Of a stretch of DNA of 23,279 bases, positions 855 through 2,285 are shown piece after piece. Made by a program: the position numbers and the translations under genes. The notes under the pieces were generated by a model. The model had not been told where the DNA came from and did no database searches. It worked only from the letters and a program-made list of their open reading frames with translations. This DNA is from Phycisphaerae bacterium (lineage in GTDB: Bacteria > Planctomycetota > Phycisphaerae > UBA1845 > UTPLA1), in contig DATKKX010000078.1 in NCBI GenBank assembly GCA_035542775.1, positions 1 to 23,279 on the forward strand, written 5' to 3'. Numbering within the stretch: the stretch's first letter is position 1; each line of letters starts with the position of its first letter.

Positions 855-2285
855 ATGGCCGAGGCCGGAACAAGTGGGCGGCGGATCGCGATCGGTGGTG
901 ACCATGGCGGCTTCGAGCTGAAAGAAGCTGTCAAGGCCCACCTGCAGAAGAAGGGCTACACCGTCGAGGACTGCGGAACGCACAGCAAAGACGCCGTTGA
1001 TTATCCGGTGTTCGCGCATGCTGTCGCCCGACTGGTCTCCCAGGGCAAGGCTGATCGCGGCATCGTCATCGATCGGGCGGGGATCGGGTCGGCGATGGCC
1101 GCCAACAAGGTGCCCGGCGTACGGGCTGCGTTGTGTTACGATTTATCTTCCGCGCGCAACAGCCGGGAGCACAACAATGCCAACGTGCTCTCGCTGGGGG
1201 CTGGGCTCGTGGGACCCGATCTGGCTTTGCAGATCGTGGACCTGTGGCTGGCCACGGAGTGCAAAGAGGAACGCCACCTCCGGCGCGCCGCGATGATTGA
1301 GCGGGGGCAAGTGACCGCCCAACCCGCGACTGGCGTCGCGACGGCCGGGCATCAGTCCAGTAAGGATGAAGGCATGGATAACCTGACCGAAGCGGACATA
1401 GAGCGAATCGTCCGGAGGATCTGCGAGATCTCCGGCCCGGCCGGGCCGATCCCGTCCGGAGCGGGCATCTGTCCGAACTCAGCGACGTGCGCGTTCTGCC
1501 AGACACGCGGCGAATCCAACCCGGATTCCCTTCGGCAACTCGTCGGCGCCGGCGCGGAGCGTGTGGCCCACGTGCTGGGAGCCGGCTCGCTCCCGGCAGA
1601 CCTCGCCAAATACATCGACCACACGCTGCTCAAGCCCGGCGCAACGGCCGCCCAGATCATCGACCTGTGCAAGGAAGCCCGGCAGTACGGCTTTGCCAGC
1701 GTCTGCGTGAATCCCTCGTTCGCCAAGCTGGCCGCCCAGCAATTGCAGGGCTCCTCGGTGAAGGTCTGCTGCGTGGTCGGGTTCCCCCTCGGCGCGCACA
1801 TGCCGGAGATCAAGGCTTTGGAGGCCCGCCGGGCGATTCGCGACGGGGCCCGCGAGATCGACATGGTCATCAACATCGGCGCGCTCAAAGGCGGCGACGA
1901 TGAGCTGGTCTACCGTGACATTCGCGGCGTAACAGAAGTGTGCATGGACGGCGGGGCCATTTGCAAGGTCATTATTGAGGCGGCGCTGCTCACCGACGAA
2001 GAGAAGGTCCGCGCCTGCCACGCGGCCAAGCGTGCCCGGGCGGATTTCGTGAAGACCTCGACCGGCTTCGGACCCGGCGGCGCCACCGCCCATGACGTCG
2101 CCATCATGGCCGACGCCGTTCGCGATGCGCGGATGGGCGTGAAGGCCGCCGGCGGCATCGCCAGCTATGAGGACGCTCAGAAGATGATCCGTGCCGGCGC
2201 CACCCGATTGGGCGCCAGCGCCGGTGTCCGCATCATAAAGGAAGCCAAGGGCCTTACCGTCTCCGGAGAAAAGCCCAAGTACTAG
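855..2285 (+). CDS. Fusion protein: RpiB/LacAB-type sugar-phosphate isomerase (N-terminal domain) + deoxyribose-phosphate aldolase DeoC (C-terminal domain), with an encapsulation-peptide-like helix in the inter-domain linker
   Basis: N-terminal domain aligns with E. coli RpiB ('[16 protein letters not shown]', '[52 protein letters not shown]'). C-terminal domain has the DeoC hallmarks 'YIDHTLLKP', Schiff-base lysine in 'DFVKTSTGF', and 'GVKAAGGI'. Linker helix '[18 protein letters not shown]' sits at nt ~1380-1433. ATG 855 is preferred (GAGG 9 nt upstream; RpiB homology begins right after). The six-frame ORF starts at 807. Confidence 0.85.
1380..1433 (+). other. Internal encapsulation-peptide-like amphipathic helix in the RpiB–DeoC linker
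   Basis: '[17 protein letters not shown]' closely resembles the N-terminus of the downstream aldehyde dehydrogenase, 'LSDEHVDQIARRVLQRLG'. Both have the D/E-x-x-I/V-x-x-I-V/A-R-R-V/I-L/C-x-x-L/I pattern typical of BMC encapsulation peptides. Pro/Gly/Ser-rich linker on both sides. Confidence 0.55.

What the first reader, a model, noticed from the sequence alone, without database searches (positions are those of the whole stretch)
855..2285. RpiB–DeoC gene fusion with an encapsulation-peptide-like helix inside the linker, and the RpiB catalytic Cys replaced by Asp
Two unusual things appear in one protein. (i) The linker (~95 aa, Pro/Gly/Ser-rich on both sides) holds '[17 protein letters not shown]', nearly the same amphipathic pattern as the ALDH N-terminal encapsulation peptide 'LSDEHVDQIARRVLQRLG'. 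A targeting helix in the middle of a fusion would tether both catalytic domains to the shell or core. (ii) Aligned to E. coli RpiB 'GILICGTGVGISIAANKF', this protein reads '[18 protein letters not shown]'. The catalytic base Cys66 is replaced by Asp, while the His in 'REHNNANV' is kept. M. tuberculosis RpiB uses Glu at this position. An acidic-base RpiB variant may have altered substrate range, or the domain may be a scaffold.
Basis: seen in the sequence. Interest (0 to 1): 0.8.

Follow-up and report, generated by a model that had tools for sequence, protein, structure and literature searches.

The report
Microcompartment aldolase fused to pseudo-isomerase
This gene encodes the signature enzyme of a sugar-phosphate-utilising (SPU) bacterial microcompartment, and its three unusual features (an RpiB-like domain fused to a deoxyribose-phosphate aldolase, a targeting-type helix in the linker, and Asp in place of the isomerase's catalytic Cys) are real but were already published for this family in 2014 and 2024.

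Summary
ORF 855-2285(+) encodes a 476-aa protein with an RpiB/LacAB domain (aa 10-150), a linker of about 100 aa, and a DeoC/DERA domain (aa 250-461). It is the first gene of a BMC operon: CcmP-like BMC-T, BMC-H, three BMC-P, a second BMC-T, and an acylating AldDH with an N-terminal encapsulation peptide. Asp73 aligns with E. coli RpiB Cys66. Thr68 is also lost (Ala75), while the sugar-phosphate-binding residues are invariant. The linker helix 177-193 is modelled as an isolated amphipathic helix between low-confidence segments. It corresponds to the extreme N-terminal helix of stand-alone BMC-associated DERAs, and its motif recurs at AldDH and RPI N-termini across loci.

M. tuberculosis Glu75 aligns six residues downstream of Cys66, with window Ser79. 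The closest loop match is LacA (DRYGVGSAMASNK).

None of this is new. Axen 2014 noted the fusion. Dwyer 2024 (PMC11585597) described the SPU3 RPI-DERA chimera, the linker as the DERA extension and a possible EP, Cys-to-Asp in all SPU RPIs, negligible R5P isomerase activity, and a scaffold hypothesis. A 2025 preprint showed that enzymes with predicted EPs, including a Flav-DERA fusion, need the EP for recruitment to shells. This protein is an ordinary member of a published family, most likely from Phycisphaerae.

The parts
855..2285 (+). Whole gene: RpiB-like / linker / DERA fusion protein, 476 aa plus stop. It is the first cargo gene of the BMC operon.
882..1304 (+). RpiB/LacAB-family domain (aa 10-150). 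There is no N-terminal extension or EP before it.
   Evidence: Pfam PF02502 at E 2.6e-54. The best PDB match is C. thermocellum RpiB 3HE8 at E 1.6e-42.
1071..1073 (+). Asp73 codon, at the position of the E. coli RpiB catalytic Cys66. It sits in the loop D73-R74-A75-G-I-G-S79, in which Thr68 becomes Ala75 and Ile72 becomes Ser79. The loop resembles LacA.
   Evidence: D73 is invariant in 34 fusions. Asp occupies this position in 64 of 66 RPIs from related loci.
1305..1601 (+). Interdomain linker (aa 151-249). It corresponds to the N-terminal extension of stand-alone BMC-associated DERAs.
1383..1433 (+). Amphipathic EP-like helix [17 protein letters not shown] (aa 177-193).
   Evidence: AF2 helix 179-193 flanked by segments with pLDDT below 50. 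L177, D181 and R184 are at least 90% conserved and R188 is 100% conserved. Hydrophobic moment 0.54. Motif shared with AldDH and RPI N-termini.
1470..1499 (+). Cys-rich stretch [10 protein letters not shown] (C206, C212, C215). It is a degenerate copy of the family consensus C-x4-C-x2-C-x2-C; the fourth Cys is Arg218 here.
1518..1571 (+). Conserved motif [19 protein letters not shown]223, R227, G233, A234 and R236 are invariant. It precedes the DERA barrel and is modelled as helices with low confidence.
1602..2285 (+). DERA (DeoC) class I aldolase domain with its C-terminal tail. D336, K371 and K400 correspond to E. coli D102, K167 and K201. The C-terminal Tyr476 corresponds to E. coli Tyr259.
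   Evidence: TIGR00126 at 274 bits. PDB 8QPS at E 5e-81. BLASTP against E. coli DeoC. The three catalytic residues are invariant in A1.
3823..3876 (+). N-terminal encapsulation-peptide-type helix of the acylating aldehyde dehydrogenase (ORF 3808-5277). This is the comparison peptide of the finding.
2305..6446 (+). Remainder of the BMC operon: CcmP-like BMC-T(dp) 2305-2952, BMC-H 2988-3311, BMC-P 3433-3777, AldDH 3808-5277, tandem BMC-T 5274-5849, BMC-P 5890-6174, BMC-P 6159-6446.

Best explanation
The gene encodes the signature cargo protein of an SPU-type (SPU3-like) bacterial microcompartment, most likely from a Phycisphaerae (Planctomycetota) genome.

**DERA domain.** The C-terminal domain is a catalytically intact deoxyribose-5-phosphate aldolase. 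[quoted passage not shown] The co-encoded, EP-bearing acylating AldDH then converts the acetaldehyde to acetyl-CoA.

**Linker.** The roughly 100-aa linker is the ancestral N-terminal extension of BMC-associated DERAs. It became internal when an RpiB-like gene that normally lies just upstream was fused in frame. Its amphipathic helix (aa 177-193) belongs to the same EP motif class as the AldDH N-terminus and serves to recruit the fusion to the shell or core.

**RpiB-like domain.** This domain has lost the canonical isomerase machinery (Cys66 to Asp, Thr68 to Ala) and has a LacA-like loop, but it keeps every sugar-phosphate-binding residue. It most likely acts as a non-catalytic or weakly catalytic oligomerising and ligand-binding module that helps assemble the enzymatic core. 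RpiB proteins form dimers or tetramers and DERA forms dimers, so a fusion of the two would form a cross-linked network.

**Shown here:** domain identities, residue substitutions, conservation, the helix prediction, homology of the linker to DERA N-termini, and the operon context.

**Inferred:** encapsulation, the scaffold role, and dR5P as the substrate.
For: - **Domains and operon:**
- **DERA catalytic residues:** the D/K/K residues and the C-terminal Tyr are conserved.
- **RpiB active site:** Asp73 corresponds to Cys66, Ala75 to Thr68 and Ser79 to Ile72. The equivalents of D9, H10, H99, N100, R133, H134 and R137 are invariant.
- **LacA loop:** the 4LFK_A loop is FDRYGVGSAMASNK, against [14 protein letters not shown] in the window.
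- **Linker helix:** AF2 models it as isolated between low-confidence segments.
- **Origin of the linker:** stand-alone DERAs carry the same helix at residues 2-30, followed by a Cys-rich stretch and the AGAxR motif.
- **Shared motif:** the helix profile is enriched at AldDH N-termini (p = 4e-8) and RPI N-termini (p = 4e-18).
- **Distribution:** of 80 genome loci from many phyla, 16 carry fusions and most of the rest carry adjacent RPI and DERA genes, nearly all beside BMC shell genes and an AldDH.
- **Literature:** PMC11585597 reports that an SPU6 DERA is active and its RPI has negligible R5P isomerase activity, that the two form a complex, and that the SPU3 chimera's linker is the DERA extension and a possible EP. 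PMC12747264 predicts EPs at termini or in interdomain linkers of four enzymes, among them Flav+DERA, and reports that EP-deletion variants were not recruited to shells.
Against: - No experiment exists on this protein or on any RPI-DERA chimera.
- Pairwise similarity of the helix to the AldDH EP is weak (p = 0.011).
- The strict conservation of all sugar-phosphate-binding residues and of Asp73 is more than a pure scaffold would need. It hints at ligand binding or catalysis.
- The conserved NP..R..GA.R motif and the Cys motif in the linker have no assigned role.
- AF2 confidence for the helix is only moderate (pLDDT 57-73).
Confidence: 0.7

Rival explanations
1. The RpiB-like domain is a working isomerase that uses Asp73 as its base on a substrate other than ribose-5-phosphate. 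One candidate is glyceraldehyde-3-P to DHAP, which would pull the DERA cleavage forward. Another is a rare sugar phosphate. On this reading the fusion is a two-step channelling enzyme and not an enzyme joined to a scaffold.
For: - Asp73 and all binding residues (D16, H17, H106, N107, R140, H141, R144) are invariant in 34 fusions and kept in at least 64 of 66 RPIs from many phyla.
- The domain still scores above the rpiB equivalog cut-off.
- Carboxylate bases work elsewhere in this family, as with Mtb Glu75 (established knowledge; sequence checked).
- The family includes enzymes for small substrates, such as D-erythrulose-4-P isomerase NF051858, which appears among the hits.
- There is no TPI in the window.
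Against: - A Chloroflexi SPU6 RPI with the same Asp had negligible R5P isomerase activity, alone and in complex with DERA (PMC11585597).
- Thr68, the proposed proton shuttle, is also replaced, in 65 of 66 RPIs.
- The loop matches LacA. PMC11585597 states that in the LacAB heterodimer it is LacB that provides the catalytic Cys.
- dR5P itself cannot undergo aldose-ketose isomerisation.
- Two RPI-containing loci also encode a TPI (L038 and L040), so there is no complementarity signal.
Confidence: 0.2
2. The linker helix is not a shell-targeting peptide. It is instead a structural or oligomerisation element of the DERA extension, for example one that docks on a neighbouring subunit or drives aggregation, and encapsulation depends on other proteins.
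For: [quoted passage not shown] It also found that the roughly 70-aa extension makes DERA insoluble.
- The rest of the extension carries strongly conserved motifs (NP..R..GA.R and the Cys cluster) that are not typical of simple EP linkers.
Against: - In both AF2 models the helix does not pack on the barrel with confidence and is flanked by low-pLDDT segments.
- The same motif occurs at the N-termini of AldDH and stand-alone RPI, which are unrelated folds. That is the hallmark of an EP.
- Deleting the predicted EPs of Hodarchaeales AMC enzymes, Flav-DERA among them, abolished recruitment to shells (PMC12747264).
- Aggregation is itself a known property of EPs.
Confidence: 0.1

Closest known systems
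SPU3 RPI-DERA chimera of sugar-phosphate-utilising BMCs (Dwyer et al. 2024, Commun Biol 7:1562, PMC11585597). The fusion was first noted in Marinimicrobia by Axen et al. 2014 (PMC4207490).
   Same: - Same domain order, RPI (PF02502) followed by DERA (PF01791).
- No EP on the RPI N-terminus.
- An interdomain helix derived from the DERA extension.
- Asp in place of Cys66, with His99 kept.
- The same operon type: AldDH with an N-terminal EP, a BMC-P triplet, a CcmP-like BMC-T(dp), and no PTAC.
   Different: - This copy comes from a Phycisphaerae-like lineage, whereas the published representative was a Verrucomicrobia MAG.
- The loop reads D-R-A-G, whereas D-G-A-G is the more common form (63 of 66).
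- The fourth Cys of the linker motif is lost.
- A recombinase-like gene lies upstream and xylulokinase and isomerase genes lie downstream.
[quoted passage not shown]
   Same: The active-site loop is nearly identical, D-R-x-G-x-G-S-A-M-A-x-N-K. Asp sits at the Cys position, and His96 and the Arg residues are kept.
   Different: - Overall the domain is closer to RpiB (3HE8 at E 1.6e-42, against LacA at 2.4e-22).
- The LacA equivalog scores are below their cut-offs (106 against 164).
- There is no LacB-like partner in the window.
- LacA has Lys where this protein keeps His17.
   Same: It lacks the catalytic Cys and uses an acidic residue. The binding residues are conserved.
   Different: Glu75 lies six positions downstream of the Cys66 column, where the window protein has Ser79. 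At the Cys66 column Mtb has Gly69. Mtb keeps Ser71 at the Thr68 position, whereas the window has Ala75.
Flavoprotein-DERA fusions with predicted EPs in Hodarchaeales SPU-type microcompartments (bioRxiv 2025, PMC12747264)
   Same: A second domain is fused N-terminally to an SPU DERA. The preprint predicts EPs at termini or in interdomain linkers for four enzymes including this one, and reports that EP deletion abolishes recruitment to shells.
   Different: The N-terminal partner is a flavoprotein domain, not an RpiB-like domain, and the host is archaeal.
Catalytically dead scaffolding cargo such as CcmM of beta-carboxysomes
   Same: An enzyme-derived domain that has lost key catalytic residues is retained for core assembly. 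PMC11585597 draws this analogy.
   Different: The folds are unrelated, and no assembly role has been shown for the RPI domain. Here the ligand-binding residues stay invariant.

Membership tests
SPU-type BMC locus (SPU3 subtype) | A DeoC-family DERA (PF01791) encoded with BMC shell genes | tested here: met
SPU-type BMC locus (SPU3 subtype) | An acylating AldDH with an N-terminal EP, at least one BMC-H, and a BMC-P triplet | tested here: met
   AldDH NF011927 at 654 bits. BMC-H at 2988-3311. Three EutN/CcmL genes.
SPU-type BMC locus (SPU3 subtype) | A CcmP-like BMC-T(dp), no PTAC, and an RPI-DERA chimera | tested here: met
   The CcmP model scores 328 bits, just under its cut-off of 340. No PduL-type gene appeared among the ORFs scanned. 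The fusion itself is shown.
SPU-type BMC locus (SPU3 subtype) | Assignment by the shell-protein and locus HMM clustering of Sutter et al. 2021 | not testable with these tools
   Those HMMs and the paper's supplementary tables were not available.
Deoxyribose-phosphate aldolase (DERA, TIGR00126) | Equivalog HMM score above the cut-off | tested here: met
   274.4 bits against 117.3
Deoxyribose-phosphate aldolase (DERA, TIGR00126) | Catalytic Asp102, Schiff-base Lys167, Lys201 and the C-terminal Tyr (E. coli numbering) | tested here: met
   D336, K371, K400 and Y476
Deoxyribose-phosphate aldolase (DERA, TIGR00126) | Aldolase activity on dR5P | not testable with these tools
   Activity was shown only for a Chloroflexi SPU6 homologue (PMC11585597).
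Ribose-5-phosphate isomerase B (functional RpiB) | Family HMM score above the cut-off | tested here: met
   TIGR01120 at 153.2 bits against 138.65
Ribose-5-phosphate isomerase B (functional RpiB) | A catalytic base at the Cys66 position, or Glu at the Mtb Glu75 position, plus Thr68 or Ser71 | tested here: not met
   Asp73, Ala75 and Ser79
Ribose-5-phosphate isomerase B (functional RpiB) | Substrate-binding residues Asp9, His10, His99, Asn100, Arg133, His134 and Arg137 | tested here: met
   All are present and invariant.
LacA (galactose-6-P isomerase subunit A) | Equivalog HMM score above the cut-off, and a LacB partner | tested here: not met
   NF006380 at 106 bits against 164, and TIGR01118 at 75 against 181. 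There is no second PF02502-like ORF in the window.
BMC encapsulation peptide | A short amphipathic helix of about 15-20 aa set off from the catalytic domain by a poorly conserved, flexible linker | tested here: met
   AF2, hydrophobic moment 0.54, and variable flanks in the alignment.
BMC encapsulation peptide | Terminal location | tested here: not met
   The helix is internal here (aa 177-193). It is N-terminal in stand-alone DERA homologues. EPs in interdomain linkers are reported in PMC12747264.
BMC encapsulation peptide | Necessary and sufficient for packaging into shells | not testable with these tools
   This needs an experiment.

The most novel reading that the evidence does not exclude
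The RpiB-like domain is not a dead scaffold. It would be a distinct, LacA-loop-type isomerase or ligand-gated module that uses the invariant Asp73 and its fully conserved sugar-phosphate pocket on a non-R5P substrate. One possibility is removal of the DERA product G3P as DHAP inside the shell. In addition, the conserved C-x4-C-x2-C-x2-C motif next to the EP helix, which the main text of the 2024 paper does not mention, could bind a metal or Fe-S centre that couples packaging or activity to redox state.
Probability: 0.12. Interest if true: 0.6.

Novelty: already known. Interest (0 to 1): 0.22.

Why it matters
SPU microcompartments are among the most widespread BMC types, and the role of their RpiB-like protein is an acknowledged open question. 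This window adds one more clear example and some comparative detail: the LacA-like D-(G/R)-A-G-x-G-S loop, the co-loss of Thr68, the invariant binding pocket, an EP motif shared by three cargo proteins, and a Cys-rich motif in the DERA extension. These details could guide mutagenesis. The window does not change the published picture.

Tried and rejected
- **Pairwise peptide similarity as proof of an EP.** It is only marginal (p = 0.011, with comparable scores in unrelated ORFs). I replaced it with a profile-enrichment test.
Rejected after alignment with a PDB-verified Mtb sequence.
- **A LacA/LacB-type heteromer.** There is no LacB-like ORF in the window, and the LacA models score below their cut-offs.
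- **RPI/TPI complementarity across loci.** Only two of the 80 loci carry a TPI and both also have an RPI, so the test is uninformative.
- **An EP on xylulokinase.** The apparent 60-aa N-terminal extension is an ORF artefact that overlaps BMC-P. The likely start is at about nt 6469.
- **XylB and the xylose-isomerase-like gene as conserved parts of the system.** They are not. XylB appears in 2 of 80 loci and is absent from the closest relatives.
- **An invertible promoter associated with the upstream recombinase-like gene.** No convincing inverted repeats were found.
- **Supplementary tables of PMC11585597.** They were not held.
- **A second AF2 run on linker plus DERA with stand-alone homologues.** It did not raise confidence for aa 194-245.
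Full report
**What is there**

ORF 807-2285(+) is listed. The true start is the ATG at 855. All 34 aligned homologues start there, and an identical 476-aa protein (P0001) is already in public collections. A GAGG lies 9 nt upstream of 855 and none precedes 807.

Pfam finds LacAB_rpiB (ORF aa 27-164, E 2.6e-54) and DeoC (aa 267-474, E 2.3e-19). 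NCBIfam scores the C-terminal half as a deoC equivalog (274 bits, cut-off 117). It scores the N-terminal half just above the rpiB equivalog cut-off (153.2 against 138.65).

The gene heads a co-directional operon:
- a CcmP-like BMC-T(dp)
- a BMC-H
- a BMC-P
- an acylating aldehyde dehydrogenase (NF011927, 654 bits) whose N-terminus is MSRLSDEHVDQIARRVLQRLG
- a tandem BMC-T
- two more BMC-P genes

This is the make-up of an SPU (sugar-phosphate-utilising) microcompartment, and it fits the SPU3 subtype. The named nearest relatives are Phycisphaerae, Phycisphaerales and Planctomycetes MAG proteins.

**RpiB-like domain**

phmmer against PDB aligns '[17 protein letters not shown]' with E. coli RpiB 'GILICGTGVGISIAANK' (1NN4) and with C. 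thermocellum 'GIVICGTGLGISIAANK'. Asp73 therefore sits at the Cys66 position.

I made a MAFFT alignment with PDB-verified reference sequences and 66 RPIs taken from 80 related genome loci. It shows the following:
- Asp at the Cys66 column in 64 of 66.
- Ala at the Thr68 column in 65 of 66.
- Ser at the Ile72 column in 65 of 66.
- The equivalents of Asp9, His10, His99, Asn100, Arg133, His134 and Arg137 kept in at least 64 of 66. They are invariant in the 34 fusions.

Mtb has Gly69 at the Cys66 column, and Glu75 aligns six residues downstream with window Ser79.

The best loop analogue is LacA, with 4LFK_A 'FDRYGVGSAMASNK' against window '[14 protein letters not shown]'. PMC11585597 states that in the LacAB heterodimer it is LacB that provides the catalytic Cys. 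Even so, the domain as a whole is closer to RpiB than to LacA (E 1.6e-42 against 2.4e-22). The LacA models score below their cut-offs. No LacB-like ORF exists in the window.

**DERA domain**

BLASTP against the PDB-verified E. coli DeoC aligns D336, K371 and K400 with D102, K167 (the Schiff base) and K201. All three are invariant. The protein ends in Tyr, like E. coli Tyr259. The best PDB match is a DERA at E 5e-81. The aldolase half looks fully functional.

**Linker**

The linker is 99 aa long (aa 151-249) and 48% P/G/S/A/T.

AF2 on the whole protein gave a mean pLDDT of 78. It models a helix at 179-193 (pLDDT about 57-73) between segments 152-174 and 194-248, both below pLDDT 50. A second run on linker plus DERA, with stand-alone homologues in the alignment, gives the same picture. 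The hydrophobic moment of the helix is 0.54, compared with 0.46 for the AldDH peptide.

In the alignment of fusions the helix is conserved and its flanks vary. L177, D181 and R184 are at least 90% conserved and R188 is 100% conserved.

An exhaustive search of 50%-identity representatives found stand-alone DERAs of 295-345 aa whose match to the query begins at query residues 150-185 and at their own residues 2-24. Examples are P0129, P0153, P0163, P0172, P0198, P0211 and P0214. When aligned, they carry the amphipathic helix at their extreme N-terminus. A variable stretch follows, often Cys-rich, and then a conserved AGAxR motif precedes the barrel. The 'linker' is therefore the N-terminal extension of BMC-type DERAs, made internal by fusion to the RPI gene that normally lies just upstream. 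Of the 80 loci, 16 carry fusions and most of the rest carry adjacent RPI and DERA genes.

**Is the similarity to the AldDH EP more than chance?**

Taken pairwise, barely. The ungapped BLOSUM62 score is 26 and shuffles give p = 0.011. The integrase-like ORF scores 24 and XylB 22.

A profile of the helix from the 34 fusions was searched against 11,556 six-frame ORFs of the 80 loci. AldDH ORFs made up 8 of the top 100 non-DERA hits (p = 4e-8), most of them hit near the N-terminus, for example MTRLSDQDIEAIAQ and MTRLTDRDIDEIAKRIA. Stand-alone RPI ORFs made up 14 of the top 100 (p = 4e-18).

Three unrelated cargo folds thus share one motif, roughly L-(S/T)-(D/E)-x-(D/E)-(I/V)-(E/D)-x-I-(A/V)-(R/K)-R-(I/V). 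That is what one expects of encapsulation peptides.

**Comparison with the literature**

- Axen et al. [quoted passage not shown]
- Sutter et al. 2021 expanded SPU to seven subtypes (PMC8217296).
  - an RPI-DERA chimera in 20 SPU3 loci
  - no N-terminal EP on the chimera's RPI
  - the comparisons with Mtb Glu and LacA Asp
  - negligible R5P isomerase activity
  - a stable RPI-DERA complex
  - the hypothesis that RPI is a packaging factor
[quoted passage not shown] It reports that EP deletion abolishes recruitment to shells (PMC12747264).

This window adds another member.

**Mechanism**

The best-supported mechanism has three parts:
- DERA cleaves dR5P inside the shell.
- The EP-bearing AldDH converts the acetaldehyde product to acetyl-CoA.
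- The internal helix recruits the fusion, and the RpiB-like domain is a LacA-like, non-canonical module that contributes oligomerisation and perhaps ligand binding to the core.

The main rival is an Asp-dependent isomerase acting on another substrate. The strict conservation of the pocket keeps this alive. Against it stand the published negative assay and the loss of Thr68.

**Small additions beyond the papers, all unproven functionally**

- The T68A and I72S substitutions accompany C66D almost universally, giving a LacA-type loop.
- The phosphate-binding residues are invariant.
- Most fusions have a C-x4-C-x2-C-x2-C motif between the helix and the barrel. At least four Cys are present in 70 of 98. 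The motif is degenerate in this window, with three Cys and Arg218 in place of the fourth. The main text of the 2024 paper does not mention it.
- A conserved NP..R..GA.R..H motif precedes the barrel and is modelled with low confidence.

**Verdict**

Novelty is 'already known', and interest is low.

Noticed in passing
window 67-765 (+); also L081 9293-9991, L082 8004-8702, L083 9235-9882: A 232-aa tyrosine-recombinase-like protein (PF00589) lies directly upstream of the fusion gene on the same strand. The catalytic-type HxxR, H and Y motifs are kept, and there is a conserved C-terminal PRFDCExD. The same gene sits in the same position in three related Phycisphaerae-type loci whose further-upstream genes differ (60-66% identity). 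It is absent from the 80 SPU loci of other phyla. It could be a domesticated regulator or a mobility remnant. No convincing invertible element was found.
   Followed up: partly
window 1470-1499 (aa 206-215) and homologues in alignments A1 and A2: A Cys-rich motif lies between the EP-like helix and the DERA barrel. The family consensus is C-x4-C-x2-C-x2-C, and at least four Cys are present in 70 of 98 fusions. Stand-alone BMC DERAs are also Cys-rich in this stretch. The window copy has only three Cys. This may be a metal or Fe-S site. The main text of PMC11585597 does not mention it.
   Followed up: partly
window 1518-1571 (aa 222-239): The motif NPxxVRQLVxxGAxRVxH is strongly conserved, with P223, R227, G233, A234 and R236 invariant. 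It lies just before the DERA barrel and is also present as AGAxR in stand-alone BMC DERAs. AF2 models it with pLDDT below 50. Its role is unknown.
   Followed up: partly
window 6469-8028 and 8025-9149 (+): A xylulokinase (XylB equivalog, 537 bits) and a xylose-isomerase-like TIM-barrel protein follow the last BMC-P gene on the same strand. The two overlap by 4 nt, which suggests translational coupling. They are not conserved with the BMC operon: XylB appears in 2 of 80 loci and is absent from L081-L083. The apparent N-terminal extension of XylB in ORF 6304-8028 is an artefact of overlap with BMC-P.
   Followed up: partly
P0157, P0135, and P0134/P0137/P0139/P0142/P0144/P0148 (representatives): Other N-terminal partners are fused to closely related DERAs: a PNP_UDP_1 nucleoside phosphorylase + DeoC (P0157) and a Flavoprotein + DeoC (P0135). 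Several proteins of 460-516 aa have an N-terminal half of about 200-250 aa with no Pfam match. The phosphorylase fusion fits a deoxynucleoside catabolic role.
   Followed up: no
L083 (Phycisphaerales MAG CP070691.1) 10001-13933: In this relative the BMC operon looks decayed. The AldDH gene is called at only 328 aa, and the tandem BMC-T and the two further BMC-P genes are missing downstream.
   Followed up: no
window aa 40 and 136 of the fusion (nt 972-974 and 1260-1262): Two Cys residues in the RpiB-like domain are invariant in the 34 fusions: C40 in 'DCGT' and C136 in 'TEC'. In the alignments, E. coli RpiB has Lys and Tyr at these positions and C. thermocellum RpiB has Phe at both. Whether the two residues are close in space was not examined.
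   Followed up: no
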